From an uncultured Planctomycetia bacterium (GTDB taxonomy: Bacteria > Planctomycetota > Planctomycetia > Pirellulales > Thermoguttaceae), in contig CAWAAL010000024.1 of assembly GCA_963779975.1 (NCBI GenBank), forward strand, positions 57,153-121,152: a stretch of DNA of 64,000 nucleotides. The letters run 5' to 3'. Made by a program: the position numbers and the translations under genes. Positions within the stretch are counted from its first letter, which is position 1, and each line of letters begins with the position of its first letter. Below, in pieces: positions 12,249 through 40,257 of this stretch. The notes beneath the pieces were generated by a model. That model saw nothing but the letters and a program-made list of their open reading frames with translations. It did no database searches and was not told the origin of the DNA.

Positions 12249-12574
12249 GATGGTGACTCCTTTCCTATAAAGCCCGGAATGGAGAATGCAACAGGTAGGG
12301 CCAATGCAGCGAATTTCGGACGTAAGTGCTTCAAAGTGAAGTGGTTCCGCCGATGGCTGCGGTCATTCTCTGTGCCTCGCTGGGGAACAAACTGTTTCCA
12401 GCCAAGATGAAACAGGCCCAGCAATTCGGTCCATGCCGTCTCGTTGGATGGCAGCGGCACGAAGGGCAGCGTAGCCGACAGGCAAGGCTTCCCTTTCATG
12501 AACAAATGCCCTATTGGTTGTATTTAATTACAGCAGCCAAAGCAGGGGCCCACAAGGGTCCGGCGCCAGGAAAG

Positions 12575-12672
12575 GACCTGAACGGCTACTTCTTCTTTAC
12601 GTCGCGGAGAATGAGCGACTCGGCGCGGGTGAAGAGAACGACCTCCTCGCCGGTGACGGTGCTGATGTCGTT
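12575..12672 (-). pseudogene. 3' fragment (~27 codons + 10 nt downstream) of a DUF2294 gene, co-duplicated with element copy 3
   Basis: ctgaacggctacttcttctttacgtcgcggagaatgagcgactcggcgcgggtgaagagaacgacctcctcgccggtgacggtgctgatgtcg matches the 3' end of gene 10837..11241; rc encodes ...DISTVTGEEVVLFTRAESLILRDVKKK*. Confidence 0.6.
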
Positions 12673-12694
12673 TGAAAGAAAGCCAAAAGCTCTA

Positions 12695-12880
12695 TTGCCT
12701 TCGCCGCGTAGCGGCGTATGATAGTTGTATTGGGAGAATCGCGGCGCACTTGATCGCGACCTTTCAACGCAATTGTCGGATGACTAGATAGAGAGCAACC
12801 TGGATGTGCCAGGGGGCTCGTTGAAGAGTAAGCCGACGTGGTCGAATGCCTTCGGGTGTTCCGCCACGTCGGCTTTTTTC
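12695..12880 (+). ncRNA. multi-copy promoter-RNA element, copy 3
   Basis: -35 TTGCCT 12695-700, -10 TATGAT 12717-22 (16-bp spacer); 5' hairpin; core with compensatory cctggatgtgccagg hairpin; terminator gccgacgtgg...ccacgtcggcTTTTTT (12874-79). Confidence 0.65.
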
Positions 12881-12953
12881 GTTTTCGGTGTTGCGGGAAC
12901 AGTCGCAACGACCGAGCATGGTCCTTGGACAATCTCAAAAAGGGAGAGTTATC

Positions 12954-13028
12954 ATGTACATCGGTGGCGGATTGGTTACGCTTGTGATCATCGTCTTGGT
13001 TGTCATGTTCCTCGTTCGCGGCTCTTGA
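12954..13028 (+). CDS. possible 24-aa hydrophobic peptide (MYIGGGLVTLVIIVLVVMFLVRGS), resembles the C-terminal half of DUF3309
   Basis: RBS aaaagggagag 6 nt before ATG 12954. Confidence 0.25.
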   Translation: MYIGGGLVTLVIIVLVVMFLVRGS

Positions 13029-13075
13029 GCGTTCACGAAAGCAAGAACGAATCACAATTCACAAAGGATACTATC

Positions 13076-14764
13076 ATGACCGTACGTCACATTTGCCCAT
13101 GGTGCAGAGTCGCCGCACTGGCAACCCTGGGCGCAATAGTTGGCTTGCACAAGGCTACCGCCGTACCGCCGGGCCCGACGGATGCCGCGGATGGGATACA
13201 AGTGCTCACGCGCGGGCCGGTGCATGAGGCCTTCGCGGAAACGGTGACCTTCGATCCGCAACCGGGCATCGTGGCGCCGAAAGCGCCGCCGGCCGCCATC
13301 GAAGAACTTCCGCCGGACCAGAAACCGGAGGGGGCCAACATCGCCTGGATCCCCGGCTACTGGGCCTGGGACGACGAACGAAGCGACTTCCTTTGGGTCA
13401 GCGGCATCTGGCGCGACCTTCCGCCGAGCCGCCAATGGGTGCCCGGTTATTGGGACCAGTCCGGGCAAGGCTACCAATGGACTTCCGGGTACTGGGCGGA
13501 TGCCCAGGCGAGTAACGTGCAATATTTGCCCGAACCGCCTGTGACCGCCGAAGCCGGTCCCAACATTCCGTCGCCTTCGCCGGACGACACTTGGCTGCCG
13601 GGAAGTTGGCTGTGGCAGCAAAACCGCTATGCTTGGCGTCCCGGTCTCTGGGCCACCGCACATCCGGATTGGGAGTGGGTTCCCGCCCATTACCTATGGG
13701 CTCATCGCGGCTATGTTTTTGTCGACGGCTACTGGGATTACTCCATCGGCCGCCGCGGCGTACTGTTTGCGCCAGTGTATTTCAGTGCGGGCATGTATAC
13801 GCAGCCCCGTTTCTCCTATTCGCCCGCGACGGTGATCGATCTGGATGTTTTCACCAACTGTCTGTTCTTGAGGCCGCAATATCAACACTACTATTTCGGC
13901 GACTACTACGCCGACAATTATCAAGCAGCGGGGTTCTACCCGTCGTATTCGTACAACTCCGGCCGCCATGGCTACGATCCGATTTTCACCCACGAGCGCT
14001 GGCAGCATCGCCAGGACGGACAGTGGGAGCGTCGCATTGCGGCCGACTTCCAGAACCGCCGCGATCACGCGGATGCCCGACCGCCGCGGACGTTGGCGGC
14101 GCAAACAGCATTCAGGGCCGGCGAGGCGACGTCCGGAAAGAGGAGTCCCGTGCTGGCCGTGCCGTTCTCCCAATTCACGAAGAGTCAGAATAGTCCGCTG
14201 CGATTCCAGCCGGTCGATTCGTTGGAGCGACAAAAGCTGGTTCAGCACGTGCAAGCGGTGCAACGATTCCGCGAGCAGCGGCAGAAACTGGAGAACCAAG
14301 CAGCGGCGCCCTCAGCCGCCTCAGCGGCGAGACAATTCGCGCCGGCCAACGGGAGACTTCCCACCTCTCCGATCGCGACGAGGTCAAACACGGAACTCGG
14401 CAAGGATCACGTTCCACCCCAGATGCATGTAGCTCCCAAGCCGGATCTCACGGTCGAGGCCAAGCCGAGAGCGACTCCATCGCTGGAGAAACCGCAGCAA
14501 CGCACCGTGAACCGGCTGCCGCTCGATACGCCGAAACCTGAACCCCGGGCCGAACGGCCGGCACCGAAAGCGGAACCCCGGGTCGAACGGCCGGCACCGA
14601 AAGCGGAACCCCCGGTCGAACGGCCGGCACCGAAACCTGAACCCCAGGTCGAACGCCCAGCGCCGAAACCTGAACCCCAGGTCGAACGCCCAGCGCCGAA
14701 ACCGCCGGCAGAGCGACCGGCAGCGGGACCGAACCGAAATGGACAAAAGGAAAAGGGTAAATAG
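13076..14764 (+). CDS. secreted Trp-rich repeat protein with Pro/Glu-rich C-terminal tandem 11-aa repeats
   Basis: signal peptide 'MTVRHICPWCRVAALATLGAIVGLHKA'; repeated 'GYWxW/SGxW' modules; 5x33-bp DNA tandem repeat 14540..14704 encoding (EP)RVERPAPKA. Confidence 0.6.
   Translation: MTVRHICPWCRVAALATLGAIVGLHKATAVPPGPTDAADGIQVLTRGPVHEAFAETVTFDPQPGIVAPKAPPAAIEELPPDQKPEGANIAWIPGYWAWDDERSDFLWVSGIWRDLPPSRQWVPGYWDQSGQGYQWTSGYWADAQASNVQYLPEPPVTAEAGPNIPSPSPDDTWLPGSWLWQQNRYAWRPGLWATAHPDWEWVPAHYLWAHRGYVFVDGYWDYSIGRRGVLFAPVYFSAGMYTQPRFSYSPATVIDLDVFTNCLFLRPQYQHYYFGDYYADNYQAAGFYPSYSYNSGRHGYDPIFTHERWQHRQDGQWERRIAADFQNRRDHADARPPRTLAAQTAFRAGEATSGKRSPVLAVPFSQFTKSQNSPLRFQPVDSLERQKLVQHVQAVQRFREQRQKLENQAAAPSAASAARQFAPANGRLPTSPIATRSNTELGKDHVPPQMHVAPKPDLTVEAKPRATPSLEKPQQRTVNRLPLDTPKPEPRAERPAPKAEPRVERPAPKAEPPVERPAPKPEPQVERPAPKPEPQVERPAPKPPAERPAAGPNRNGQKEKGK
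14540..14704 (+). repeat. 5 x 33-bp tandem repeat (coding, Pro-rich linker)
   Basis: gaaccccgggccgaacggccggcaccgaaagcg unit repeated with a few substitutions. Confidence 0.8.
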
Positions 14765-15041
14765 GTCGTCGTGGTTGAGCCTTGACGGCAAGAACACGAC
14801 CGGCTGTGTGCTCGGCGAGCAGTTCGGCAGGTCGAAGGAAGTGAAACGACTTGCCTTTGCCAGAAAGGCACGAGCAAAAACAAGACCGTGACGACGACCA
14901 CTCAGACCAAGGACGGTAAGACAGCAGGCGGGACGACCACGAACGACACGAAGACAAAAACCACTGCTCCTCCCGCTGGCGGCAAGGCGACTGAAAAGAC
15001 GACCGAAACGACCACCGAGACGACCAAGTAGGTTTTGCGAA

Positions 15042-15096
15042 AGCGTTTTCTGAATGCTAGGTATAACCCCTACGCATTCAGAAACGCTATTTTATC
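15042..15096. terminator. strong hairpin (16-bp perfect stem, 16-nt loop) followed by a T-rich tract; likely bidirectional terminator
   Basis: agcgttttctgaatgc taggtataaccccta gcattcagaaacgct attttatcc. Confidence 0.5.
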
Positions 15097-16311
15097 CTTG
15101 CTTCGCCCGAAGAAATACGAGCTGGAGATTCACGGCGCGAAGGTGAAACCAGGCTTCGAGGTCGATCCCGATGTCCCGGCCTGTCATTCGGAGGTGCGGG
15201 AACGTGTCCATAGGGTCCGGTCAGATCGCCTGTCGCCTTGCGGTTTGAGTCCTTATGACACGCCTTGGCGGCGGAACGACACCGGCCTTGCTGTGCCCAG
15301 TCCCACCGGGCAACCGTCGCTGAACGCCGCACTTTCGCCTCAATCTTCAGCGCCGGAGTCCAATTTTCCCGAACTACAGGCCATTCCCGATCTCGGCCCC
15401 CCGTCGTTCCCCGAAACGAATGGGCGGGAAGGCACGAGCCCGGCCGAGCCAGCCCTTGACCTGACTCGCAGCGTCGGACGGCCGGTCGCGCTTCCGCAGC
15501 AAACGTACACCCGCTCGTCGGAGTTATCCGACCGCTTGACGCAGATCGCACGCGGCAAGGGCATGCTCCCCGGTCAGGGCATCAACGTCTGCTCATAAGC
15601 AACGGCATCGCCCTCATGCACGGCACCGTCCGCACGCCCGGCGACTGCGTCCTGCTGGCGAACGTCCTGGCTCTCGAACCGGAGGTGCGGCAGATTGACA
15701 ACCGCTTGGTCGCCTTCGGTCCTCGGTAGGCTTTTTGGGCGATCGCCGGTGGCCGTTCGGGGTTCCGTGGCATTGACGCTTTGCGGGCGCTATCGTCGCT
15801 TGTACGCACTCCAGGGGGTAACTGGACGGGATTTCGCTGGTGTCGGCCGGCAAGGCCGGGTTCAGGCGATTACCGGGTCGATCGAGATTGTTGGCTGCGG
15901 CACGAATTGACCCGCCGACCTGAAACAGGGCGCGTAGCGTCGGTCCTGCACCACGGCATCCGGTCGAACCACCACCAGACGGCGCCCATGGCCACGAATT
16001 TGGCGGACCACGAGCACGGATTCCGCATTAAGAAGTGGACACCGAATGAGAGTGATGCCCAGAGTGCTGGGCCGGATCAGAAGGACAATGGGCCATGGCA
16101 GAAAGTGAAACCTTCCGGGCGCTGCACGACAACAGTACGACACCAAAGACAAACAGTGCGGCGCTCGGAGGTTCCTCCCGCGCCGGAAAAGCCGAGCCGA
16201 CACCTGTGCCAATGGCGCCGCACGCATGCGCGCTACAGTACCTCATTTCCATCATCAAGAACTCGCAACGCAGGAGCCCGTCACAATAGAACGACTGAAG
16301 GATGGTGCCTC

Positions 16312-17763
16312 ATGGTAACAATGGACAAGTCCGAACCGGGGTCGATTCGCACCTATCTGATGCAAATGGGCGACATCCCTCTGCTCAGCCGGAGCGAGGA
16401 GTTGGCGACAGCTCGTCAAATCGACAAGACTCGCGGTCGGCTGCGGCGTGGCATGTTGTCCGCCCACTTTATCCTTCACGCGGCGATCGCCGCGGCGGAA
16501 GAAGTCCTGAGCGGCAAGCTGCGGTGGGACCAGGTGATCGAGTTATCGAACGATGATCCCAGGAAGGGGCAGATAACTCAGCTCTTGGAGACGAATTGCC
16601 GGACGCTCGGTCAGCTCCTGCGCTTGAACCGGAATGATTTCCGCATCGCCGTCGGTCATCGGAAGCATTCGCCGGACGATCGTCGGGCCGCACGGCGGCG
16701 GCTAGTCCATCGCCGTCGAAGGGCGGCGTCGTTGATCGAGGAAGTCGCGGTGCGAATGCCCTGCATGCAGTCGGCGCTGACCACGCTCAGGCAGATGTCC
16801 GAACGGATGACCGCCGTCGCCGTAGCGCGGGCGAAAGTGCAATCGGTTGCTGGCGAAGAACACCAACTTGAAGAGCTGCGCAAGGAAATGCGCTGCCTGA
16901 TGCGGGTCACGCAGGAAACCCCAGCCACGTTGCGCCGACACTTGACGCGGATCGCGGCGATGAGCAAAGAGCATGCAGCGGCCCGCCGCGACCTGGCGGC
17001 GGGCAACCTCCGTCTGGTCGTCTCGATCGCCAAGCGATACCGCAATCGCGGGCTGAGCTTGTTGGACCTGATCCAGGAAGGTAATACCGGCCTGATGCGG
17101 GCCGTCGATAAGTTCGAGTCCGCCCGCGGCTTCCGCTTCTCGACCTACGCTACCTGGTGGATCCGCCAGGCCATGAGCCGGGCGATCGCCGACCAGAGCC
17201 GGACCATCCGCGTGCCGGTCCACATGATCGAAAAGATGGGCAAGGTCCGCGACATCAATCGCGATCTGGTTCACAACGAGGGCCGCGAACCGACCCTGGA
17301 GGAAGTGGCCCAACTCAGCGGGCTGTCGATCGCCGACACGCAGCGGGCCTTGAAGATGAGCCGGCAACCGCTTTCCTTGGACCAACCCGTGGGCCATCAG
17401 GAAGAGAACTTCCTTGGCGACCTGCTCTTCGATCATCGCGAAGAAGATCCGCTGGCCGGCATGAACCAGGCCATGCTTCGTTCGAGCATCACCGACGTTT
17501 TGCAGACGCTCGACTATCGCGAGCGGGAGATCCTGCGGCTGCGCTACGGGCTGGCCGACGGCTACACCTCGACACTGCAGGAGATCGGCCGGATCTTCTC
17601 CGTCACCCGGGAGCGGGTCCGCCAGATCGAGTCCGAGGCGATCCGCAAGCTCCAGCGTCCGGCTCTGTCTCGCAAACTCGCAGGCTTTCTGGATGAGCAG
17701 ATCCCGCTGCTGAGCAACATCAACTTCGGTCTCAGCGGGATCGCCATGGCCGGGAATTTGTGA
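16312..17763 (+). CDS. RpoD-family sigma-70 factor (regions 1.2, 2, 3, 4)
   Basis: '[54 protein letters not shown]', '[30 protein letters not shown]'; RBS aaggatgg before ATG 16312. Confidence 0.85.
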
Positions 17764-17954
17764 CGGCCTGCCGGGACCGACTGGCAGTGGTCCATCTCCG
17801 CTTCCTTGCCGGCGCAACCATCTTGGACGGCAGAGCCTTGGCGATAAATGGCGCGGTAACACTCGATGACAACACGATCACCGCGCCAAGTTCGGTTCCA
17901 GAACCCGTATCCCTAAGCCCCATTGCCTTTGCCCTTTGGCGGCGTAAAATGTGA
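17764..17954 (+). pseudogene. C-terminal remnant of a DUF3494 (ice-binding-like) protein with PEP-CTERM-like tail; 5' part missing (abuts the sigma gene stop)
   Basis: 'ATILDGRALAINGAVTLDDNTITAP' vs 'ATILNGRALAQTGAVTMDTNTISNV' in the 18149..20779 protein; tail 'SSVPEPVSLSPIAFALWRRKM*' where the last codons coincide with the -35/spacer/-10 of element copy 4. Confidence 0.5.
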
Positions 17955-18105
17955 GTGTTGGAAGAGTCGCATGGCAGATCGCGCTGCTCCAACGTAATTG
18001 TCGGATGACTAGAAAGAGGGCAACCCGGCCCTGCCGGGGGGCTCGTTAGCGAGTAAGCCGACGTGGTCGAATACCTCCGGGTGTTCCGCCACGTCGGCTT
18101 TTTTC
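17924..18105 (+). ncRNA. multi-copy promoter-RNA element, copy 4 (complete)
   Basis: -35 TTGCCT 17924-29, -10 TAAAAT 17945-50; 5' hairpin gttggaagagtcgcatggcagatcgcgctgctccaac; core; terminator with TTTTTT 18099-104; gene ATG at 18149. Confidence 0.7.
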
Positions 18106-18148
18106 GTGCTTGGTTGCGCATCACAGTCACTTCACACGGAGACCCACG

Positions 18149-20779: not shown

Positions 20780-20790
20780 CGTGCAATGTC

Positions 20791-22065: not shown

Positions 22066-22242
22066 TCCGGTTTGCTGATAGGAACCGCTCGTATCGGGAA
22101 GGCCCTATAAACAAATACCCCATTGGTTATAATTAATTACAATCGCGGTGGGTGATGGTGGATGACATCCTCGTCTCTCGTTGACAATCGCGGCGACCAG
22201 GCATGGTCCCACTAAAAGACGGAGGAAGGCAATGTTTCTGTT

Positions 22243-22296
22243 GTCGCTATGATCCATTTTCTTACTATAGTCGCTATGATCCATTTTCTTACTATA
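22243..22296. repeat. 2 x 27-bp perfect tandem repeat in an AT-rich intergenic island upstream of the BBP7-like gene
   Basis: gtcgctatgatccattttcttactata x2. Confidence 0.8.
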
Positions 22297-22443
22297 TTCG
22301 ATCGGACCCGCGCAATTGGAAATTGCAACAAACTGCGACACGTCGGCACAAACAGCATAACCGTCAAACTTTGCCAACTCGCGGGTGCAAGGTCGCCAAC
22401 AAGCAGCCAAAGCAGGGCCCGACAAGGGTTCGGCGCCACGAAA

Positions 22444-22548
22444 GGACCTGAACGGCTACTACTTCTTTACGTCGCGGAGAATGGGCGACTCGGCGCGGGT
22501 GAAGAAGAACGACCTCCTCGCCGGTGACGGTGCTGATGTCATTTGAAA
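22444..22548 (-). pseudogene. 3' fragment of a DUF2294 gene, co-duplicated with element copy 5 (same breakpoint as the 12575 fragment)
   Basis: ctgaacggctactacttctttacgtcgcggagaatgggcgactcggcgcgggtgaagaagaacgacctcctcgccggtgacggtgctgatgtcatttgaaagaaggcc. Confidence 0.55.
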
Positions 22549-22565
22549 GAAGGCCAATAGCCCTA

Positions 22566-22748
22566 TTGCCTTTACCCTTTGGCGGCGTACAATGTGACTG
22601 TTGGAAGAGTCGCATCGCAGATCGTGCTGCTCCAACGAAGTTGTCGGATGACTAGAAAGAGGGCAACCCGGCCCTGCCGGGGGGCTCGTTGACGAGTAAG
22701 CCGACGTGGTCGAATACCTCCGGGTGTTCCGCCACGTCGGCTTTTTTC
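22566..22748 (+). ncRNA. multi-copy promoter-RNA element, copy 5 (complete)
   Basis: -35 TTGCCT 22566-71, -10 TACAAT 22588-93; hairpin gttggaagagtcgcatcgcagatcgtgctgctccaac; core; terminator TTTTTT 22742-47; sigma gene ATG at 22778. Confidence 0.7.
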
Positions 22749-22777
22749 ATTTTCTGCCAGGTTCGGAGTACCCTCCC

Positions 22778-23791
22778 ATGTCGATCTTACCACACTTTCA
22801 CCAACCCCTGCAGACCGCGACAAAACAGCAGATTTTCCAGCAACATCGCCATGGCGACTCGGCGGAGTCGCTGGCCCGGCGTTTTTGTCGGTCCTGCACC
22901 CGCATTTACGGCATCATCAAGGAGATCCGGGCCGCACGGATCATGGAACTGCCGCTGGACTCCATGGGCAACGAGCAGTTTGCCCGCCTGTGCTCGGAGA
23001 AGAAGGAACGCGAGATATTACAGCCACCGCCGGAAGGCGATCTGGCGGCGAAGAAGTCGCGCGTGCCCGCCGGCATGCCCGCGTATCTGGCCAACCTGTA
23101 CGACGTGCCCCTGCTGACGCACGAGGAGGAGGTCCATCTCTTTCGGAAGATGAACTATCTCAAGTTCAAGGCGAGCGGGCTCCGCGACGCCCTCGACGTG
23201 AACCGGCCCAAGAGTTGCCTGATGGACCAGATCGAGGATCTGTACGACGAATCGGTCGCAGTCCAGAATCAGATCATCCGCGCCAACCTGAGGTTGGTGG
23301 TCGGGATTGCCAAGCGGTACGTCGGTCCGGCGGAAGACTTCTTCGAACTGGTCAGCGACGGGAACATGTCGTTGATCCGCGCCGTGCAGAAGTTCGATGT
23401 TTCGCGGGGCAACAGGTTCAGTACGTACGCAACTTGGGCGATCATGAAGAATTTCGCCCGCACGATCTCCGACGTGCTCCGTCAGCGGGGCCGTTTTTGC
23501 ACGAACCACGCGGAAACGTTCGGCGGCGCCGAGGATGACCGCACGGACCAGTACGAGCAGGCGTCGGCCCAAATCCAGCGGGAATCGCAAGTCGAGGGGA
23601 TCCTCGAGCGACTCGACGAGCGGGAGCGGCAGATTGTCACGAGCCGTTTCGGCCTGGCGCGCGGCCAGGAACCGCTGACCTTGAAGCAGGTCGGGGCTGC
23701 GATCGGCGTAACCAAAGAGCGGGTCCGTCAGATCCAGTGCCGGGCGATGAGCAAATTGAGAACGGCTGCCGAGGAGGACGGAATCGAGTGA
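22778..23791 (+). CDS. sigma-70 family sigma factor (group 3-like)
   Basis: '[39 protein letters not shown]', 'LTLKQVGAAIGVTKERVRQIQCRAMSKLR'. Confidence 0.8.
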   Translation: MSILPHFHQPLQTATKQQIFQQHRHGDSAESLARRFCRSCTRIYGIIKEIRAARIMELPLDSMGNEQFARLCSEKKEREILQPPPEGDLAAKKSRVPAGMPAYLANLYDVPLLTHEEEVHLFRKMNYLKFKASGLRDALDVNRPKSCLMDQIEDLYDESVAVQNQIIRANLRLVVGIAKRYVGPAEDFFELVSDGNMSLIRAVQKFDVSRGNRFSTYATWAIMKNFARTISDVLRQRGRFCTNHAETFGGAEDDRTDQYEQASAQIQRESQVEGILERLDERERQIVTSRFGLARGQEPLTLKQVGAAIGVTKERVRQIQCRAMSKLRTAAEEDGIE

Positions 23792-23811
23792 TTCCAAGGG
23801 AAAGGGACAAC

Positions 23812-26305: not shown

Positions 26306-26527
26306 CTTGCCGGGCTGGTGAAGAAGTCTTTCTAGCGAGTAAGATCCGCAACAACCGATCAACGACCCCTGCCAGCTTGTCTGGCAGGTGAAGGAGTTTT
26401 GTTAGCGACTCGACAGGATCCCAACGATCCTCTTGTCGCGTCCGGTCCGGCACCCGGAGGGTGCCGGACCGGACGCGAAATGCGTTGGGGAGACGGCACC
26501 GTTCTCGCTAATAAAACTCGTTCACCA
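26306..26527. repeat. ~222-bp intergenic element bounded by 34-bp imperfect terminal inverted repeats (17-bp perfect core) with an internal perfect palindrome (26441-26473)
   Basis: cttgccgggctggtgaagaagtctttctagcgag ... ctcgctaataaaactcgttcaccagcccggcaag; internal tccggtccggcaccc gga gggtgccggaccgga; internal ~28-bp direct repeat ggtgaagaagtctttctagcgag / ggtgaaggagttttgttagcgac. Confidence 0.6.
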
Positions 26528-26587
26528 GCCCGGCAAGCGGGCTGGGGTCCCGAATAGATGCTGGAGACGCGTATCCGCCAATTCAGT

Positions 26588-26743: not shown

Positions 26744-29150
26744 ATGACGACAAAAGCCCTTTCCCCCGAACTGCTCCAGAAGATGGACGCTTATTGGCGC
26801 GCCGCGAACTATCTCTCGGTCGGCCAGATTTACCTTTATGACAATCCCCTCCTGAAGCGGCCGCTTGCGCTTGCCGACGTGAAGCACATGCTGCTGGGAC
26901 ACTGGGGCACGACCCCCGGACAGAACTTCATCTACGCACACCTGAACCGGGTCATCAAGAAATACGACCTCGACATGATTTATGTCTCCGGTCCGGGGCA
27001 CGGCGGCCCGGCCGTCGTGGCCAACACGTACCTCGAAGGCACGTACAGCGAGGTCTATCCCGACATCAGCCAGGACGAGGCCGGGCTGCGGAAGCTCTTT
27101 CTGCAGTTCTCGTTTCCCGGAGGAATTCCCAGCCACGCATCGCCCGAGTGCCCGGGCTCGATCCACGAGGGCGGCGAGTTGGGCTATTCGCTCAGCCATT
27201 CGTTCGGAGCGGTGTTCGACAATCCCGGTCTCATCGTCGCCTGCGTCGTCGGCGACGGCGAGGCGGAGACGGGACCGCTGGCCACGGCGTGGCATTCGAA
27301 CAAGTTCCTCGATCCGGCCACCGATGGCGCGGTGCTGCCGATCTTGCATCTCAACGGCTACAAGATTTCCAACCCGACCATCCTGGCCCGCATCGAGCAC
27401 GAGGAATTGGAGCAGTTGCTCCGCGGCTACGGGTGGACGCCCTACTTCGTCGAGGGGCACGAGCCCGAACTGATGCACGAGGCGATGGCCGCGACGCTCG
27501 ACGCGGCGGTGGAGCAGATCCGACAAGTCCAGGACAACGCCCGCCGACCATCGGTAGATGGCGCCCCCTACAGCCTGACGCGTCCGCGCTGGCCGATGAT
27601 CGTGCTGAACTCGCCCAAGGGCTGGACGGGGCCGAAGATGATCGATGGATTGCAAGTGGAAGGCACCTTCCGGGCGCACCAGGTGCCGCTCTCCGATCCG
27701 GCGACGCATCCGGAACACCTCAAGCTGCTGGAAGACTGGCTGAGGAGCTACCGGCCGGAGGAACTCTTCGACGATTCAGGCCGCCTGAAAGCGGAGTTGG
27801 CCGAACTGGCGCCCCAAGGCCAGCGGCGCATGGGCGCCAATCCCCACGCCAACGGCGGCCTGCTGCTCCGCGACCTGCGGATGCCGGACTTCCGCGACTA
27901 CGCGGAAGCCGTACCCTCGCCGGGCGCGCGCGGCATCGGCGAACGTCCACGTGCTCGGGCCTTTCCTCCGCGACGTGGCGAAGCTCAACGCCGAGCCGAC
28001 CATGGGTACACGGTGCCCGAACTTTCGCGTCTTCGGCCCTGACGAGACGCTCTCCAACGGCCTGGAGGCCCTTTTCGAAGTGACGCAGCGCCAATGGGAC
28101 GCCGCAACCGTGCCCAACGACGAATTCCTCGCGCCCGCGGGGCGGGTGATGGAAATGCTCAGCGAACATCAATGCGAGGGCTGGCTCGAAGGCTACCTGC
28201 TCACCGGGCGGCATGGACTCTTCAACTGCTACGAGGCCTTCATCCACATCGTCGATTCGATGTTCAACCAGCACGCCAAGTGGCTGAAGGTCACGTCGCG
28301 CTTGCCGTGGCGGCGGAAGATCGCCTCGCTGAACTACCTGCTGGCCTCGCACGTCTGGCGCCAGGACCACAACGGTTTCACGCACCAGGACCCCGGTTTC
28401 ATCGATCACGTCCTGAACAAGAAGGCCGAAATCGTCCGCGTTTACCTCCCCCCGGACGCCAACTGCCTGCTCTCCGTGATCGACCACTGCCTCCGCAGCC
28501 GGCATTACGTGAACGTCGTGGTCGCGGGCAAACACCCCGCGCCGCAGTGGCTGACGATGGACGCCGCCGTCAAGCACTGCACCGAGGGCATCGGCATCTG
28601 GCCGTGGGCGAGCAACGACCAGGGCGTCGCCCCCGACGTGGTCATGGCCTGCTGCGGCGACGTGCCCACGCTGGAGACGCTCGCCGCCGTCTCGATCCTC
28701 CGCGAGCATCTGCCGGAGTTGAAGATCCGGGTGCTCAACGTCGTCGACCTCATGCGGCTGCAACCGCAAAGCGAACACCCGCACGGGCTGAGCGACATGG
28801 ATTTCGACGAGCTTTTCACCAAGGACAAGCCGGTCATCTTCGCGTTCCATGCCTACCCATGGCTGGTCCACCGGCTGACCTACCGCCGCACCAACCACCG
28901 CAACATCCACGTCCGCGGCTACAAGGAAGAGGGCACCATCACCACGCCCTTCGACATGACGGTGCTGAACGATCTGGACCGCTTCCATCTTGTGATGGAC
29001 GTCATCGACCGCCTGCCGCAGACCGGCGACAAGGGCATCTATCTCAAGCAGCAACTCAAGGACAAGCTCATCGAGCACAAGCAATACATCGAGAAGTACG
29101 GCCAGGACCTGCCGGAAATCCGCAACTGGAAGTGGGACAACCTCAAATGA
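26744..29150 (+). CDS. xfp: xylulose-5-phosphate/fructose-6-phosphate phosphoketolase (802 aa); apparent frameshift ~27935-27950
   Basis: '[20 protein letters not shown]', 'GPGHGGPA', '[20 protein letters not shown]'; C-terminal half continues in ORF 27951..29150 ('FLRDVAKLN...[13 protein letters not shown]'). Confidence 0.85.
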
Positions 29151-30239: not shown

Positions 30240-30360
30240 CAGCCCCGCTATTTCTTCTTCGCGTCGCGGAGCATCGGCGACTCGGCCAGGGTGAAAAGAA
30301 CGACCTCCTCGCCAGTGAGGGTGCTTATGTCATGGCGCATGCTCAACGCAATCCAGGCAA
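30240..30360 (-). pseudogene. 3' fragment of a DUF2294 gene with its own ATG (mini-ORF MMIAWIALSMRHDISTLTGEEVVLFTLAESPMLRDAKKK*), co-duplicated with element copy 6
   Basis: ctatttcttcttcgcgtcgcggagcatcggcgactcggccagggtgaaaagaacgacctcctcgccagtgagggtgcttatgtcatggcgcatgctcaacgc. Confidence 0.5.
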
Positions 30361-30396
30361 TCATCATATCAAGGTTAGAAAAAGGGCAATAGTCGC

Positions 30397-30581
30397 TTGC
30401 CTTTTTTGCGTGGCTGGTTACAATGACCGGTGGGAAGAGTCGCGGCGGACTAGACTGTGGCTTTTCACTGGAATTGTCGGATGACTAGATAGAGGGCAAC
30501 CCGGCCGTGCCGGGGGGCTCGGTAGCGAGTAAGCCGACGTGGTCGAATACCTGCGGGTATTCCGTCACGTCGGCTTTTTTC
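30397..30581 (+). ncRNA. multi-copy promoter-RNA element, copy 6 (complete)
   Basis: -35 TTGCCT 30397-402, -10 TACAAT 30419-24; core tgtcggatgactagatagagggcaacccggccgtgccgggggg; terminator TTTTTT 30575-80. Confidence 0.7.
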
Positions 30582-30636
30582 GTTTTCTGCCAGTTTTGGT
30601 CCAAGCCCCACTTGTTACCCAATGAGGAACTGAATC

Positions 30637-31170: not shown

Positions 31171-31181
31171 GGTCAGGAACC

Positions 31182-31391: not shown

Positions 31392-31421
31392 TCCTCGGGG
31401 AGCCAGGGGGGAGGATATCGG

Positions 31422-33512: not shown

Positions 33513-34619
33513 ACGGCTTTCAATTGCAGCGGCTCGGGCTGATGATGGAGCCGGAACCGGGCAATCCGCATGGAGGCTGAAGGCGTCCTGAATCCGGCGG
33601 CCGTTCGCGGCCCTGACGGCAAGCTTTACCTGTTTCCACGGCTCGTCGCGCGAGGCAATTATTCGCGCATCGGCATTGCCCGCGTAAAATTCAACGAAGC
33701 CGGCGATCCGTGTGGAGTCCAACGGCTCGGCATCGCACTGGAGCCGGAAACCGATTATGAGCGTCGGCCCGACGGCAGCGGTGGCTGCGAGGATCCGCGT
33801 GTCACGTTCGTCGAACCGCTTCAGTGCTACATGATGACTTACGCGGCGCTCTCGCCCATCGGCCCACGGATTGCCGTGGCCGTATCGGAGGATCTGTTTC
33901 ACTGGAAGCGACTGGGGCTCGCGACCTTTGCTCCGTATGACGGCATCGATTTCGTTCACGTGGACAACAAGGATGCCAGCCTCTTCCCCGTCGCCATCCC
34001 CAATCACGCCGGGAAAATGCAGATGGCCATGCTCCATCGTCCCCTTTTCCCCGGCACTCGTCCCGAGGAAACCGCCTGCCAGGCCGCGTCGCGCGAGGTG
34101 GATCTCGATCATGAGAGCATCTGGATTTCCTACTGTCCGATGGCCTTGGAGGGTCCCGAACCGTCACACCTCGGCCTGTTTAATTCGCATCACCGGCTGG
34201 CGACTCCGGTGTCGCCCTGGGAGCGGCTCAAGATCGGTGCGGGCACTCCGCCCGTCATGACCCGGCACGGCTGGCTGATCCTTTACCACGGCGTGAGCGA
34301 AATGGCGGAGGCAAGTAACGACGGACATCATTTGTGCTACTCGGCCGGGGTGATGGTGCTCTCGAAGGAACATCCGCGCGTGATCCGCTATCGTTCGGCG
34401 GAGCCTGTGTTGACGCCGGAATTGCCTCAAGAGCGCTGCGGGACCATTGCCAACGTCGTGTTCCCCACCGGCATCGACCGCCGCGACGACATCGGCTTGC
34501 CGGACCGCTTCGACGTTTACTACGGGATGGCCGACAACCGGATTGGCGCGGCACGCCTGGATGTGCCGGATTTCCTGCCGCCGGGACGAGTCGTCGATCC
34601 GCCGGAAGCAAAGGTGTAG
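33509..34619 (+). CDS. GH130-family glycosylase (beta-mannoside phosphorylase/hydrolase-like); apparent frameshift ~33565; start overlaps upstream stop (ATGA)
   Basis: 'LQRLGLMMEPEPGNP' then 'EAEGVLNPAAVRGPDGKLYLFPRLV', 'GTPPVMTRHGWLILYHGV', 'YSAGVMVLS', 'VVFPTG'. Confidence 0.65.
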
Positions 34620-34654
34620 CGTGCCCGATTTCGGGAAAGAACAGGAGGATAGTC

Positions 34655-37153: not shown

Positions 37154-37930
37154 AGTCACGTTTGATCATGAAGCAGGCGTCTTGCGGGTCTTGCAGACCA
37201 AGAGCGAGACGAAGGCATTCTACGACAAGATCGCCATGGTCTATGATCTCTTGGCGGAGCATTCCGAGCGGCCCGTGCGTGAAACCGGGCTGCGGCTGCT
37301 CGCTGCTGCCCCAGGTGAGCGCGTTCTGGAAATCGGCTTCGGGACCGGCCATATCTTGGCCGAACTTGCCCGTGCCGTCGGGCCGACGGGAAAGGTCTTC
37401 GGCATCGACATCTCGGAGAACATGTTGGACCACGCAAGAGGCGTTCTGAGCAACAAGGGCCTCATTGACCGCGTTTCCCTTGATTGCGGCGATGCCCAAA
37501 GCCTCCCCTACGGTGACGACTCGCTGGACGGGATATTCATGTGCTTCACCCTGGAACTGTTCGACACGCCGGACATTCCCAAGGTGCTGGCAGAGTGCAA
37601 GCGGGTCCTGCGGCCGCGCGGGCGCATCGTCGTCGTGGCCATTTCCAAGGAGTGTAAAGACGGCAAAGAAGGCAAGGACGGGTTCATCATTCACGCCTTC
37701 GAGTGGACACATCGCCACTTTCCCAATTTGATGGACTGCCGGCCGATCTATGTCCGCCGAGCGCTGGAGGCGGCGGGCTTTGCCATCGAGGACTCGCGGA
37801 CGGAATCTATGTGGATTCCCGTGGAGATTGTGCTGGGCAGGAGGGCCGTCTTCTTGCCTTTGCCCCGAAGCTGGACTCCATGGGCGACGAGCAAATTGCG
37901 AACGGCTGCCGAGGAGGACGGAATCGAGTG
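37143..37930 (+). CDS. class I SAM-dependent methyltransferase (UbiE/COQ5-like); native C-terminus replaced by a read-through into a duplicated sigma-factor 3' fragment
   Basis: 'RVLEIGFGTGHILAELARAVGPTGKVFGIDISENML', 'LRPRGRIVVV'; ORF continues '...TSKLRTAAEEDGIEC' = copy of the end of gene 22778..23791. Confidence 0.65.
37880..37927 (+). repeat. ~48-bp duplicate of the 3' end of the sigma gene at 23744-23791
   Basis: ggcgacgagcaaattgcgaacggctgccgaggaggacggaatcgagtg vs gcgatgagcaaattgagaacggctgccgaggaggacggaatcgagtg. Confidence 0.75.
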
Positions 37931-37979
37931 CTTTCCAGCGGTGGAGGCGAAGGACCACGAGTCGAGCAGCGAGGCCAGA

Positions 37980-38307
37980 ACATGCCCCCACAGCCCCATG
38001 CCCATAAACATTTCACCGGCACGGCAACCGTCCGCGACATCGTGATCGGCATGTCCGATGGTTTGACCGTTCCCTTCGCCCTCGCAGCTGGGCTTTCGGG
38101 GGCCGTGGACGCGACGAGCATCGTGATTACGGCCGGGCCGGCCGAGGTTGCGGCTGGTTCGATTGCGATGGGCCTGGGCGGCTACTTGGCCGCAAGGACC
38201 GATTCCGAACATTACGTCACGGAGCGGGCTACCGAAAAAGAGGCAACGATCGAGATGCCGGAACCGGAGGCCGAAGAAGTGGCCTCAGTATTCCGGCACT
38301 TATCTTA
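37980..38307 (+). pseudogene. N-terminal fragment of a VIT1/CCC1-family Fe/Mn transporter, truncated immediately before element copy 7
   Basis: 'VRDIVIGMSDGLTVPFALAAGLSGAVDATSIVITAGPAEVAAGSIAMGLGGYLAA...'; ends after ~109 aa, lacking the C-terminal TM bundle. Confidence 0.5.
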
Positions 38308-38336
38308 GCGAAGATGCTTGGCTAAAACCACGAGTA

Positions 38337-38522
38337 TTGCCTTTTCCCTTCGGCGGCGTACAATTTCAGTGTTGGAAGAGTTGCGGGGCACTTGTTCGCG
38401 GCTCTCCAGTGAAATTGTCGGATGACTAGATAGAGGGCAACCTGGCTGTGCCGGGGGGCTAGTTGAAGAGTAAGCCGACGTGGTCGAACACCTTAGGGTA
38501 TTCCGCCACGTCGGCTTTTTTG
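38337..38522 (+). ncRNA. multi-copy promoter-RNA element, copy 7 (complete; 3' extension box aacggtcggaatccagcacggaag shared with copy 2)
   Basis: -35 TTGCCT 38337-42, -10 TACAAT 38359-64; hairpin gttggaagagttgcggggcacttgttcgcggctctccag; core with cctggctgtgccgggg; TTTTTT 38515-21. Confidence 0.7.
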
Positions 38523-38605
38523 TTTTCTGTGACGCCAAACGGTCGGAATCCAGCACGGAAGACTTCCAGGTTCAAAATCCTGGAGTTGAGCGGAGGTGAC
38601 GAACC

Positions 38606-39052
38606 ATGAGTCGAGATGCAATTGACAGAATGGAAATCCTCATGGTCGAGGATAACTTGCAGAATGCCAACGGCACGATACAGGCCCTCAAATGGGGCAA
38701 CGTGCAATGCCGAGTGAGCCTGGTCTGCGATGACGAGGAAGCGATCCGCTTTCTCTACCGTAAGGGTGAATTCGCCAAGGCGCCGACGCCCAACCTGATC
38801 CTGCTGGACATGCAGTTGCCCAAGGAGGAAGGTCAGCGCTTGCTTGCGGAAATCCGCGCCAACGAAGAACTCAAGGACATTCCCGTTGTGGTCCTCACCG
38901 GTTCACTGGATCACCGAGCGGGTCTTCACGTCCAAGAGATTCAGGTGGACGGCTTGATCACGCACCCCGTGGAGTTGGACAAGTTCATCGGTGTGGTCAA
39001 GTCGCGTCGCCGGTCTTGGTTGACCGACCTTGCGCTGTCCTCCATTGCCTGA
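38606..39052 (+). CDS. single-domain response regulator (REC only)
   Basis: 'ILMVEDNLQNANGTIQALKW...LILLDMQLPKEEGQRLLAEIRANEELKDIPVVVLTGS'; RBS ggaggtga. Confidence 0.75.
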   Translation: MSRDAIDRMEILMVEDNLQNANGTIQALKWGNVQCRVSLVCDDEEAIRFLYRKGEFAKAPTPNLILLDMQLPKEEGQRLLAEIRANEELKDIPVVVLTGSLDHRAGLHVQEIQVDGLITHPVELDKFIGVVKSRRRSWLTDLALSSIA

Positions 39053-39432
39053 CGGACACGACCTGGAACACAACCGTTACGAAGACAATCATCCTTTTTT
39101 GCAGCACCGTTCTGGCCGTCGGCGAATTCGGCATGGGTTTCACAATCGGGGTGTTGAGAACCCTGGCTTTTGTCGTCATCGTGTTCGGCAATCAGGCGAC
39201 GACCTATGCCAACCGCGAATGCCGGCGACTCCGGTCCTCTCACCCCAGCTTCTGGCTGGCAATGTCATCGGTTGCCGATATCCTGATCGCCTCGATGTTG
39301 GCCATCGGGGGAATCTCCATGACTCTTTTGCCGGCTCTTGTCGTGGCCGGCACGCTTGCCGCGGCGGTGGTCTTCGCCTTGGTCGTGGATGCGGCCAAAG
39401 TGCCGGTATTCGGGCGACTCGGGATCGCGTGA
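39016..39432 (+). pseudogene. C-terminal fragment of a second P-type ATPase (last TM helices)
   Basis: 'VFGNQATTYANRECRRLRSSHPSFWLAMSSVADILIASMLAIGG' parallels 'IFLTRTRGPFWSIRPARILWVAVLGTQIVATLIAVYG' of the 34655 gene. Confidence 0.35.
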
Positions 39433-39456
39433 TCACTAATCCGCATCCTGGACGGC

Positions 39457-39717
39457 GTGGGGGCGGGAGTATTCGGCGTTGTCTCGGTCCTCGTGATCGC
39501 CGACCTCACGCGGGGCTCGGGCCGCTTTAATCTCACGCTCGGGGCCATCAGCACGGCGGTCGGCATTGGTGCTTCGCTCAGCCAGGTCATTGCCGGCTCC
39601 ATCGTGCATCACTTTGGCTCCAACGTCGGCTTTCTCTTCCTTGCCGCGGTCGCGTCGGCCGCATTGGGCATCCTTTACTTCTTCATGCCGGAGACACACA
39701 ATAAAGGGTTTGCCTGA
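39457..39717 (+). pseudogene. C-terminal fragment of an MFS transporter
   Basis: 'RFNLTLGAISTAVGIGASLSQVIAGSIVHHFGSNVGFLFLAAVASAALGILYFFMPETHNK'. Confidence 0.4.
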
Positions 39718-39740
39718 CCAACCCCACGAGCATCAACCCT

Positions 39741-40091
39741 ATGAACACCGTCCTTCTGCTGGTTCTGTCGAATGTCTTCATGACTTTCGCCTGGTACGGG
39801 CACTTGAAATACGGTCACGAGTGGCCGCTATGGAAAGCGATCCTGGTCTCCTGGGCGATCGCGCTCTTGGAATACTGCCTGGCGGTGCCGGCAAACCGCC
39901 TCGGTTACGGCCAGTTCTCCGGATTCCAGCTCAAGATCATTCAAGAGGTCGTCACGCTCCTCGTCTTCATCGTATTCGCGATCGCGTTTCTGAAGGAGAA
40001 AGTTGCGTGGAATTATCTCGTGGCCTTTGTGTTTCTCGGCGTTGCCGCGTTCTTCGCCTTTGCGTTCAAGGCGCCCGGACCGGCCGCCTGA
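39741..40091 (+). CDS. DMT-superfamily small membrane protein (DUF486-like)
   Basis: 'VLLLVLSNVFMTFAWYGHLKY', 4 TM segments. Confidence 0.5.
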   Translation: MNTVLLLVLSNVFMTFAWYGHLKYGHEWPLWKAILVSWAIALLEYCLAVPANRLGYGQFSGFQLKIIQEVVTLLVFIVFAIAFLKEKVAWNYLVAFVFLGVAAFFAFAFKAPGPAA

Positions 40092-40257
40092 ACGACTGGA
40101 TGGGAAGGCATGAACCTGGCGCGGAGCAATCCCCATTTTCTCTTTACGTCGCGGAGAATTGGCGACTCGACCGGGAGACCTCCTCGCGGCTGACGGCGCC
40201 GAACACCACGGCCCATGCCTCAACAGCTTGATACTGTGGGAAAAAGCAATGGGCCTA

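What the first reader, a model, noticed from the sequence alone, without database searches (positions are those of the whole stretch)
12490..40200. Cassette copies 3, 5, 6 and 8 carry the same minus-strand 3' fragment of a DUF2294 gene; copies 3 and 5 share identical breakpoints
Upstream of these promoters lies the last ~27 codons, plus ~10-55 nt of downstream sequence, of a DUF2294 gene in reverse orientation. It matches the intact gene at 10837-11241. Copies 3 and 5 share the same junction (...gtcg/atttgaaagaa[a/g]gcc...). They also share additional upstream sequence (agcagccaaagcagggcccacaagggtccggcgccaggaaaggacc; attggttgtatttaattaca vs attggttataattaattaca). So the copies arose by segmental duplication of an already-rearranged module, not by independent insertions. 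Copy 6 keeps a 39-codon mini-ORF with its own ATG. Where the 5' two-thirds of each DUF2294 gene should be, the cassette promoter sits instead.
Basis: seen in the sequence. Interest (0 to 1): 0.6.

Follow-up and report, generated by a model that had tools for sequence, protein, structure and literature searches.

The report
DUF2294 gene stubs beside RNA-leader cassettes
Four short leftovers of a DUF2294 (MpsC-family) gene lie just upstream of four copies of a repeated promoter-plus-RNA-leader cassette; they are decayed remains of a gene that is normally paired head-to-head with this leader across Planctomycetota, so they are ordinary pseudogene relics that record how the leader module multiplied and recombined.

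Summary
Minus-strand 3' stubs of an MpsC/DUF2294 gene lie 95-135 nt upstream of cassette cores 3, 5, 6 and 8. Three are strong (91-93% identical to the intact gene at 10837-11241). The copy-8 stub is weak and decayed.

The interpretation needs revision. In 119 loci from other Planctomycetota, 42 of 170 copies of the cassette RNA have a full MpsC1-type gene divergently placed about 200 nt upstream. Often a second DUF2294 gene and csrA follow the leader. The stub-bearing cassettes still carry the right-hand part of that canonical intergenic region. So the promoter did not replace the gene's 5' end. Internal deletions removed MpsC codons 1 to about 104, plus its own promoter, from full modules.

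There are three different junctions. Copies 3 and 5 share one junction, about 80 nt of non-MpsC flank and 97% stub identity, so they are one event present twice. Copies 6 and 8 are separate events. Copy 5 is chimeric: its left flank resembles copy 3 and its promoter/RNA body resembles copy 4.

Three of the four stubs cannot encode a peptide. They are most likely non-functional relics. Their main value is as a pointer to an undescribed, phylum-wide DUF2294-leader-CsrA module.

The parts
10837..11241 (-). Intact MpsC1-type DUF2294 gene (TTG start at 11241; alternative ATG at 11217). It is divergent from cassette 2.
   Evidence: Pfam PF10057, E 9e-36. Its ortholog P0002 (91% aa) is followed by an intact transglutaminase-like gene in L120-L123.
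9585..9974 (+). Second intact DUF2294 gene (MpsC2, 59% aa identity to MpsC1). It is not paired with a cassette.
   Evidence: tblastn, Pfam E 4e-29, no divergent core nearby.
11423..11537 (+). Cassette 2 RNA core plus terminator, the partner of the intact MpsC1. It lacks the 5' hairpin form of the promoter region.
   Evidence: Its ortholog lies in L120 7783-8280 (86.8%).
12586..12671 (-). Stub t3: MpsC codons 108-134 plus the stop codon. Homology with the intact locus runs on to 12578. There is no start codon in frame.
   Evidence: blastn 92.6%, nhmmer E 7e-19, frame analysis.
12497..12585 (.). Non-MpsC flank shared only by copies 3 and 5: an AT-rich segment (about 12497-12532) and a 45-nt segment (12533-12577), followed by 8 nt also shared with the intact locus.
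   Evidence: (family D9). It is found nowhere else in 127 related loci.
12672..12887 (+). Cassette 3: UP element (tttgaaagaaagccaaaagctctattgcc), -35 TTGCCT at 12695, -10 TATGAT, 5' hairpin, RNA core and terminator.
22459..22542 (-). Stub t5: same junction as t3, with a +1 frameshift and an early TAG stop.
   Evidence: blastn 91.4% with one gap, nhmmer E 1e-17, alignment, frame analysis.
22110..22458 (.). Left flank of copy 5: the shared AT-rich segment (22110-22141), a unique 261-nt segment containing a 27-nt tandem duplication (22142-22402), and the shared 45-nt segment plus 8 nt (22403-22458).
22543..22756 (+). Cassette 5, a chimera. Its UP element resembles copy 3. From the -35 box (22566) to the terminator it resembles copy 4.
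   Evidence: family D2, 95% to 17916-18105; left flank 93% to c3; core 97% to c4.
17916..18113 (+). Cassette 4, which has no stub. It is the closest relative of the promoter/RNA body of cassette 5.
30248..30349 (-). Stub t6: MpsC codons about 102-134 plus the stop codon, which lies 10 nt from the stop of the convergent PPK2 gene. A 39-codon ORF starts at the ATG at 30367.
   Evidence: blastn 90.8%, nhmmer E 6e-24. PPK2 identified by Pfam.
30350..30589 (+). Cassette 6 with about 75 nt of retained canonical MpsC-cassette intergenic sequence (aatccaggcaatcatcatatcaaggttagaaaaagggcaatag...), the promoter (-35 at 30397), hairpin, core and terminator.
   Evidence: Alignment A3, promoter scan.
40136..40216 (-). 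Stub t8: an older, decayed MpsC 3' remnant with an 11-12-nt deletion and its stop codon lost. The last ~17 nt were assigned by eye.
   Evidence: blastn 72%, nhmmer E 1e-3, alignment, frame analysis.
40217..40451 (+). Cassette 8: UP element (gggaaaaagcaatgggcctattgcc), -35 at 40258, hairpin, core and terminator.

Best explanation
The four fragments are pseudogene stubs. They are what remains of MpsC1-type DUF2294 genes that once sat head-to-head with those cassettes.

**Shown**
- Across Planctomycetota the cassette's home is a two-part unit: an MpsC1-type gene transcribed divergently from the promoter of the leader RNA, with its start about 200 nt from the RNA core. Often the leader is followed by a second DUF2294 paralog and csrA.
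- The stub-bearing cassettes in the window keep the UP-element end of that canonical intergenic region.
- There are three distinct stub-to-intergenic junctions (copies 3/5, copy 6, copy 8).
- The copy 3/5 junction occurs twice, together with about 80 nt of unrelated flank.
- The promoter/RNA body of copy 5 belongs to the copy-4 lineage.

**Inferred**
- The genome acquired extra copies of the unit, or converted existing ones.
- Because one MpsC1 gene acting in trans suffices, the redundant copies were lost by internal deletions. These removed codons 1 to about 104 and the MpsC promoter. Deletions that also hit the cassette's -35/UP region would have silenced the downstream stress gene and been selected against.
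- The roughly 110-190-nt cassettes, all in the same orientation and 86-97% identical, act as substrates for homologous recombination or gene conversion. This shuffles left flanks (gene or stub) relative to cassette bodies and downstream genes.
- The stubs themselves have no function.
For: **Linkage of MpsC1 with the leader**
- 42 of 170 verified RNA cores have a full MpsC1-type gene divergent within 450 nt.
- 41 of 45 MpsC1-type genes in the loci are so linked.
- A DUF2294 paralog lies downstream in 19 of the 42. csrA lies about 475 nt downstream of a core in about 24 loci.

**Deletion rather than replacement**
- Alignment A3 places the copy-6 spacer and the copy 3/5/8 UP elements column by column on the canonical intergenic region of full modules L057, L086, L001, L105 and L095.
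- The UP signature occurs in 9 of 43 MpsC-linked cores, 2 of 121 unlinked cores, and all four stub-bearing window cassettes. It is absent from the other seven window cassettes (Fisher p = 1e-4).

**Different junctions and relationships**
- Searches show the three junctions.
- Stub identities over 81 nt: t3-t5 97%; t3/t5 to MpsC1 91%; t6 to MpsC1 92%; t6 to t3/t5 86%.
- t6 and MpsC1 share Met127. t3, t5, t8 and the ortholog P0002 have Ile.

**Decay**
- t3 has no start codon.
- t5 has a frameshift and an early stop.
- t8 has a deletion and no stop codon.

**Chimerism**
- c5 versus c3: left flank 93%, promoter/hairpin 65%.
- c5 versus c4: left flank 56%, core 97%, and 95% over 190 nt.

**Other signs of cassette-mediated shuffling**
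- Cassette 1 is cut inside its terminator and fused to a truncated transglutaminase-like gene whose ortholog is intact.
- c2 and c7 share their post-terminator leader, and so do c8 and c11.
- Relatives show every state at the sigma-factor locus: intact MpsC (L034), no MpsC (L128), stub (window).
- Decaying MpsC copies next to cores occur elsewhere too: L003, L039, L094, L029, L109, L009 and L104.
Against: - The breakpoints in MpsC cluster tightly (codons about 102-107, perhaps 98). This is unexpected for three random deletions. It could indicate a common origin, a deletion hot spot, or selection to keep the 3' end.
- A search for a conserved microhomology that would explain a hot spot gave only chance-level matches in 43 intact modules.
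- 3' stubs are much more frequent in the window (4 of 11) than elsewhere (2 of 159; p = 1.4e-4). That fits lineage-specific copying better than independent decay.
- All stubs are closer to the in-genome MpsC1 (91-92%) than MpsC1 is to its own ortholog (86%). I have to explain this by recent duplication or gene conversion.
- The rest of the source genome could not be read, so donor loci and the total number of modules are unknown.
- No transcription data exist, so lack of function is inferred, not shown.
Confidence: 0.7

Rival explanations
1. One rearranged unit (stub plus cassette) arose once and was then copied to four places by segmental duplication. The different junctions are later nested deletions.
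For: - Stubs are enriched in this window (4 of 11 versus 2 of 159).
- All four share the UP signature.
- The breakpoints cluster within about 10 codons.
- The copy 3/5 junction could be derived from a copy-6-type junction by a further deletion of about 45 nt.
- All stubs are nearest to the in-genome MpsC1.
Against: - t6 is 86% identical to t3/t5 but 92% to MpsC1, and it shares the derived Met127 with MpsC1.
- Sequence left of the stop codon is unrelated between copies 3/5, 6 and 8.
- The cassette bodies to the right are not each other's closest relatives.
- The UP element is a general feature of full modules in other genomes, so sharing it does not imply a common rearranged ancestor.
Confidence: 0.15
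2. The stubs are retained because they do something. Candidate functions: a C-terminal mini-protein; an antisense RNA against MpsC1 mRNA, made when the convergent upstream genes (PPK2, DMT_6) read through; or an insulator/terminator between the upstream gene and the cassette promoter.
For: - The breakpoints cluster, so that about 27-35 codons always remain.
- t6 has a 39-codon ORF with an ATG.
- An independent stub in L003 also begins with an ATG.
- t6 keeps a 33-nt perfect match to MpsC1 and lies 10 nt behind the PPK2 stop codon.
- Between copies 3 and 5 the stub is 97% identical, against about 89% for the adjacent non-MpsC 45-nt segment.
Against: - Three of four stubs cannot be translated into MpsC sequence.
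- t3 and t5 have no plus-strand gene reading into them.
- No terminator-like hairpin lies inside the stubs.
- Third-codon-position conservation in the 3' end of 43 intact genes is only slightly higher than elsewhere, giving no sign of an embedded element.
- Stubs are rare in other genomes, whereas 121 of 170 cores have no detectable MpsC sequence upstream.
Confidence: 0.07
3. The similarity is coincidental or low-complexity sequence, or the stubs are artefacts of mis-assembly across the repeated cassettes.
For: The cassettes are repeats of about 190 nt that could confuse a short-read assembler. Stub 8 on its own is only marginally significant (E 1e-3).
Against: - E-values are 1e-32 to 1e-34 for three stubs.
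- Orientation and position are identical relative to the four cassettes (p about 2e-7).
- Each stub has its own substitutions and unique flanks, so none is a collapsed or duplicated read of the intact gene.
- Similar stubs occur in independent assemblies (L003, L039).
Confidence: 0.02

Closest known systems
Gene relics (truncated pseudogenes) left by duplication followed by deletion in bacterial genomes
   Same: Each stub is a fragment homologous to a functional paralog in the same genome. Each lacks a start codon and promoter, and the stubs carry frameshifts and indels. One rearrangement is present in two copies.
   Different: The relics are not scattered. Each sits at a fixed position and orientation next to a copy of one regulatory RNA cassette, because the parent gene belongs to a conserved two-part unit with that cassette.
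Divergently transcribed regulator-target pairs (for example LysR-type regulators and their target operons)
   Same: A small conserved gene is transcribed divergently from the promoter of the element it accompanies. The intergenic region is short and conserved, and one copy can serve many target sites in trans.
Multi-copy cis-regulatory leader RNAs with terminator/antiterminator logic (riboswitches, T-box and protein-dependent attenuators)
   Same: The cassette has a promoter, a conserved structured RNA with covarying stems, an intrinsic terminator and then the regulated gene. A 5' segment (UGUCGG) can pair with the 5' arm of the terminator (CCGACG). Many copies sit in front of functionally related (stress) genes.
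   Different: It matches none of 4227 Rfam families. The ligand or binding protein is unknown. It travels with a protein gene (MpsC1), and its home operon encodes CsrA.
S. aureus MpsABC (source of the Pfam name for PF10057)
   Same: The intact genes match PF10057 (E 9e-36 and 4e-29).
   Different: No mpsA/mpsB (NuoL-like / DabA-like) genes were seen among the neighbours scanned here. The context is a stress-gene island with RNA leaders and csrA, so the Na+/bicarbonate-transport annotation should not be transferred.

Membership tests
MpsC / DUF2294 (Pfam PF10057) | Significant match of the protein to the PF10057 profile above its gathering score | tested here: met
   The intact genes score 122.7 and 101.2 bits against a cut-off of 23. 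The stubs match only the last 27-35 codons (tblastn; nucleotide profile).
Truncated pseudogene (gene relic) | Homology to part of a functional gene, combined with loss of the start/5' region | tested here: met
   All four stubs lack codons 1 to about 100 and the MpsC promoter.
Truncated pseudogene (gene relic) | Disabling mutations, or absence of a usable reading frame | tested here: met
   t3 has no start codon, t5 has a +1 frameshift and an early TAG, and t8 has a deletion and no stop codon. t6 alone keeps an ATG-initiated 39-codon ORF.
Segmental duplication of an already rearranged module | Identical breakpoint plus shared flanking sequence unrelated to the parent gene | tested here: met
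   This is met for copies 3 and 5 only. They have the same junction and share the 45-nt and AT-rich flanks at 93-94%.
Segmental duplication of an already rearranged module | All copies share that breakpoint and are each other's closest relatives | tested here: not met
   Copies 6 and 8 have other junctions and unrelated flanks. t6 is 86% identical to t3/t5 but 92% to MpsC1. The cassette body of c5 is closest to c4.
Mobile element (IS / MITE / integron cassette) | Terminal inverted repeats, target-site duplication, a transposase or integrase gene, or attC sites | tested here: not met
   No terminal inverted repeats or target-site duplications lie around the copy-5 flank. The 261-nt extra segment is unique. 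No transposase or integrase domain was found in 40 ORFs scanned. The repeat is a promoter-RNA-terminator unit upstream of genes.
Known RNA family (Rfam 15) for the cassette RNA | Match to a covariance model at its gathering score | tested here: not met
   There are no hits in the whole window at gathering thresholds. Only hairpin-level chance hits, far below threshold, appear at E up to 5.
Terminator-based attenuator / riboswitch-like leader | Conserved structured RNA between a promoter and the gene, ending in an intrinsic terminator, with a mutually exclusive alternative pairing | tested here: inconclusive
   Covarying central stem and terminator in 167 sequences. Fold z-score -4.6. The UGUCGG/CCGACG alternative pairing is invariant, so covariation cannot test it. 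No ligand or protein was tested.
CsrA-controlled RNA | GGA-containing binding sites bound by CsrA | not testable with these tools
   An invariant GGAUGA lies in the single-stranded 5' segment, and csrA lies in the home operon of about 24 loci. Binding needs an experiment.

The most novel reading that the evidence does not exclude
The stubs are fossils showing that this leader RNA spreads through the genome together with its DUF2294 neighbour. This would imply that MpsC1-type DUF2294 proteins, with the downstream DUF2294 paralog and CsrA, are the trans-acting machinery of an undescribed, phylum-wide terminator/antiterminator leader that controls a planctomycete general-stress regulon. On this reading, new genes are recruited to the regulon by a 'copy the regulator-plus-leader unit, then prune the regulator' route.
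Probability: 0.3. Interest if true: 0.75.

Novelty: new member of a known kind. Interest (0 to 1): 0.35.

Why it matters
The stubs themselves are ordinary gene relics. Their value is as markers.

- They led to the finding that a DUF2294 gene is almost always paired head-to-head with a structured leader RNA that has no Rfam family. That RNA is present in many copies across Planctomycetota, and its home operon encodes a second DUF2294 protein and CsrA.
- This gives a family of unknown function (PF10057) a testable context in post-transcriptional or attenuation control of stress genes.
- It warns against transferring the 'Na+-translocating MpsC' annotation to these genes.
- It documents how a cis-regulatory RNA regulon can grow and be reshuffled by recombination between its own copies.

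Tried and rejected
- **Embedded element in the MpsC 3' end.** I looked for unusually conserved synonymous sites in 43 genes. There is only a slight dip in third-position entropy around codons 98-114, which is not convincing.
- **Microhomology hot spot for the recurrent breakpoint.** The copy-6 junction resembles GCTCCACAG in the L057 intergenic region. However, the longest shared words between MpsC codons 96-116 and the intergenic region of 43 intact modules are 5-8 nt, at chance level.
- **Donor locus.** The 45-nt segment downstream of stubs 3/5 and the 261-nt segment of copy 5 have no match in 127 related loci. The exact junction has no match in JGI metagenome contigs.
- **Source genome.** Exact-protein look-ups of MpsC1, PPK2 and YflT found nothing. 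A 100%-identical sigma factor (P0121, on a 175-kb contig) exists, but its look-up also returned no record.
- **In-situ decay at orthologous loci.** The result is ambiguous. L034 has an intact MpsC upstream of the sigma ortholog. L094 has a frameshifted full-length MpsC convergent with PPK2. But the closest relatives lack it: L128 for sigma (90% nt) and L065 for PPK2 (89% nt).
- **Terminator inside the stubs.** None was found.
- **Literature.** No paper was found on DUF2294 in Planctomycetes or on this RNA.
- **Integron or mobile-element reading of 'cassette'.** Rejected; see the membership test.
Full report
**Setting.** The window has 58-64% G+C across 2-kb bins. Pfam hits typical of Planctomycetota (BBP7, the PF07638 ECF sigma factor, DUF1579) mark it as a planctomycete stress-gene island. 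It encodes CsbD, YflT, DUF1328, an Hsp20-like protein, PPK2, phosphoketolase, acetate kinase, sigma factors, a response regulator and two MpsC/DUF2294 genes.

Eleven copies of a cassette lie on the plus strand. Their RNA cores start at 10321, 11423, 12773, 17998, 22641, 30474, 38415, 40337, 46755, 47464 and 48232. A typical copy contains, in order:
- an A-rich UP region;
- a -35 box TTGCCT and a -10 box TACAAT;
- a variable 5' hairpin;
- an invariant single-stranded UUGUCGGAUGACUAGA;
- a long covarying hairpin;
- an intrinsic terminator.

No Rfam family matches it.

**Checking the observation.** blastn with the intact gene region (10837-11241, minus strand; PF10057, E 9e-36) finds minus-strand fragments at four places:

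| Stub | Coordinates | Identity |
|---|---|---|
| t3 | 12578-12671 | 92.6% |
| t5 | 22448-22540 | 91.4%, one gap |
| t6 | 30247-30344 | 90.8% |
| t8 | 40141-40199 | 72% |

- A nucleotide profile built from 43 MpsC1-type genes finds exactly these four and nothing else (E 7e-19, 1e-17, 6e-24, 1e-3).
- Each fragment ends 95-135 nt upstream of a cassette core, in the same orientation. By chance this has a probability of about 2e-7.
- The copy 3/5 junction, the shared 45-nt segment beyond the stop codon and the shared AT-rich 20-mer are all present.
- In copy 5 a unique 261-nt segment separates the 20-mer from the rest.
- Copy 6 has the 39-codon ORF (ATG at 30367). t3 has no start codon, t5 is frameshifted with an early TAG, and t8 has an 11-12-nt deletion and no stop codon.

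Copy 8 is the weak member.

**What the fragments come from.** A scan of one genome per species for the RNA core returned 119 loci, almost all from Planctomycetota MAGs: Pirellulales, Gemmataceae, Thermoguttaceae, Isosphaeraceae and Phycisphaerae. A profile search then gave 170 verified cores (11 in the window, 159 in the loci).
- 42 cores have a full MpsC1-type gene (more than 62% amino-acid identity) in divergent orientation within 450 nt.
- 41 of the 45 such genes in the loci are linked in this way. That includes genes far from the core that originally selected the locus.
- In 19 of the 42, a second DUF2294 paralog (about 30% identity) follows the terminator.
- In about 24 loci csrA follows about 475 nt after the core.

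The cassette's home is therefore a unit: MpsC1 transcribed one way, and the leader, a DUF2294 paralog and CsrA transcribed the other way.

**Deletion, not replacement.** In most full modules of relatives, the MpsC start is separated from the RNA core by about 200 nt. That stretch contains the same UP element (GGAAAGGCAAAAG..CTATTGC), the -35 and -10 boxes and the 5' hairpin seen in the window's cassettes.

Alignment A3 places the stub-bearing cassettes on this canonical intergenic region:
- copy 6 keeps about 75 nt to the left of the -35 box (aatccaggcaatcatcatatcaaggttagaaaaagggcaatag);
- copies 3 and 5 keep about 30 nt (tttgaaagaa[a/g]gccaa[a/t]ag);
- copy 8 keeps about 30-45 nt.

The UP signature is found in 9 of 43 MpsC-linked cores, 2 of 121 unlinked cores, all four stub-bearing window cassettes, and none of the other seven (p = 1e-4).

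So the promoter was always there. What happened is an internal deletion of MpsC codons 1 to about 102-107 together with the MpsC promoter and 5' region. The deletion stopped short of the cassette's UP/-35 region.

**How many events.** There are three junctions:
- after codon 107 in copies 3 and 5;
- near codons 102-105 in copy 6;
- a further-eroded junction in copy 8.

Over the shared 81 nt, stub identities are as follows:

| Pair | Identity |
|---|---|
| t3 vs t5 | 97% |
| t3 or t5 vs MpsC1 | 91% |
| t6 vs MpsC1 | 92% |
| t6 vs t3/t5 | 86% |

- t6 and MpsC1 share Met127. t3, t5, t8 and the ortholog P0002 have Ile.
- Sequence beyond the stop codon is shared by t3 and t5 only. It matches the intact locus for just 8 nt.
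- I conclude that copies 3 and 5 carry one event present twice, and that copies 6 and 8 are separate events.
- The tight clustering of breakpoints remains unexplained. A test for a conserved microhomology was negative.

**Recombination between cassettes.** Copy 5 is a mosaic:

| Segment | c5 vs c3 | c5 vs c4 |
|---|---|---|
| 60 nt left of the -35 box | 93% | 56% |
| promoter and 5' hairpin | 65% | 84% |
| core and terminator | 90% | 97% |

Repeat family D2 gives c4 versus c5 as 95% identical over 190 nt.

Other junctions in the window tell the same story:
- Cassette 1 is cut inside its terminator loop at 10396 and fused to the interior of a transglutaminase-like gene. The ortholog of that gene, next to the MpsC1 ortholog, is an intact 300-residue protein.
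- Cassettes 2 and 7 share their post-terminator leader, and so do cassettes 8 and 11.
- A 52-nt copy of the sigma gene's 3' end lies upstream of cassette 7.

Relatives show every state:
- an intact MpsC upstream of the sigma ortholog (L034, 85.6% nt);
- no MpsC at all in the closest sigma ortholog (L128, 90% nt);
- a frameshifted full-length MpsC convergent with PPK2 (L094);
- an unrelated ORF at that position in the closest PPK2 relative (L065).

Whether each stub decayed in place or arrived by conversion therefore cannot be settled with the data available.

**Function of the stubs.** Three of the four cannot be translated into MpsC sequence. No terminator-like structure lies within them. Synonymous-site conservation in intact genes gives no sign of an embedded element. 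Elsewhere such 3' stubs are rare: 2 of 159 cores (L003 and L039). 5' stubs and frameshifted copies also occur. I regard the stubs as neutral relics.

The functional alternatives cannot be excluded without expression data, but I rate them unlikely. They are a mini-protein from t6, or an antisense RNA to MpsC1 carried in the 3' UTR of PPK2.

Three things suggest a protein-dependent attenuator:
- the strict pairing of MpsC1 with the leader;
- the csrA gene in the home operon;
- the invariant GGAUGA in a single-stranded segment whose neighbour UGUCGG can pair with the terminator's 5' arm.

Nothing here tests that idea. No literature on it was found.

**Verdict.** 'Promoter in place of the gene' should read 'internal deletion within a conserved gene-leader unit'. 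The stubs are ordinary pseudogene relics of modest interest. The gene-leader-CsrA module they point to is the more interesting object.

Noticed in passing
window cores at 10321, 11423, 12773, 17998, 22641, 30474, 38415, 40337, 46755, 47464, 48232 (plus strand); 159 further cores in L001-L119: The cassette RNA is a phylum-wide structured leader (170 verified copies). It has a covarying central hairpin, an invariant single-stranded GUCGGAUGACUAGA and an intrinsic terminator whose 5' arm (CCGACG) can pair with UGUCGG. It matches no Rfam 15 family.
   Followed up: partly
L124 9066-10447; L125 1908-3351; also L081, L086, L098, L001, L105, L090, L072 and others: The canonical home of the leader is: an MpsC1-type gene transcribed divergently, then the leader, then a second DUF2294 paralog (about 147 aa) overlapping a csrA gene. 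csrA lies about 475 nt after the core in about 24 loci.
   Followed up: partly
window 10255-10396 and 10127-10819 (minus strand): Cassette 1 is truncated inside its terminator loop and joined to the interior of a transglutaminase-like gene that keeps only its N-terminal domain. The ortholog in L120 (8846-9748) is an intact 300-aa protein next to the MpsC1 ortholog.
   Followed up: partly
window 37882-37933 versus 23742-23793: The last ~16 codons of the cassette-5 sigma-factor gene recur at 94% identity about 400 nt upstream of cassette 7, out of frame with the methyltransferase ORF there. This is another 3' gene stub near a cassette. In L096 the response-regulator ortholog directly follows the sigma ortholog.
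   Followed up: partly
window 26744-28042 and 27951-29150: The phosphoketolase gene is split over two overlapping reading frames (XFP_N in one; XFP plus XFP_C in the other). This is either a frameshift mutation or a sequencing error.
   Followed up: no
window 11538-11580 vs 38531-38570; 40438-40525 vs 48334-48421: Sequences just after the terminator are shared between cassettes 2 and 7 (L108 matches both) and between cassettes 8 and 11 (85% over 88 nt). These pairings differ from those of the upstream flanks, which fits recombination within the cassettes.
   Followed up: partly
L003 1640-1920 (same MAG as L034 and L122); window 9975-10275: A relative carries an independent MpsC 3' stub (codons about 81-134) that starts with an ATG. 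It is separated from its cassette by a ~190-nt segment homologous to the sequence upstream of the window's cassette 1.
   Followed up: partly
window 26364-26549: A 186-nt imperfect palindrome (74% self-complementary) lies upstream of the phosphoketolase gene.
   Followed up: no
window 14498-14737; 45828-46466; 61316-61398: Three sets of tandem repeats: 33-nt units inside the cassette-3 membrane-protein gene, 72-nt units (leucine-rich repeats) inside the histidine-kinase gene, and 21-nt units (TTCCCCGTCAGGAAGCAAT).
   Followed up: no
window 22235-22288: A 27-nt tandem duplication lies inside the unique 261-nt segment of copy 5's left flank, between the porin-like BBP7 gene and stub t5.
   Followed up: no
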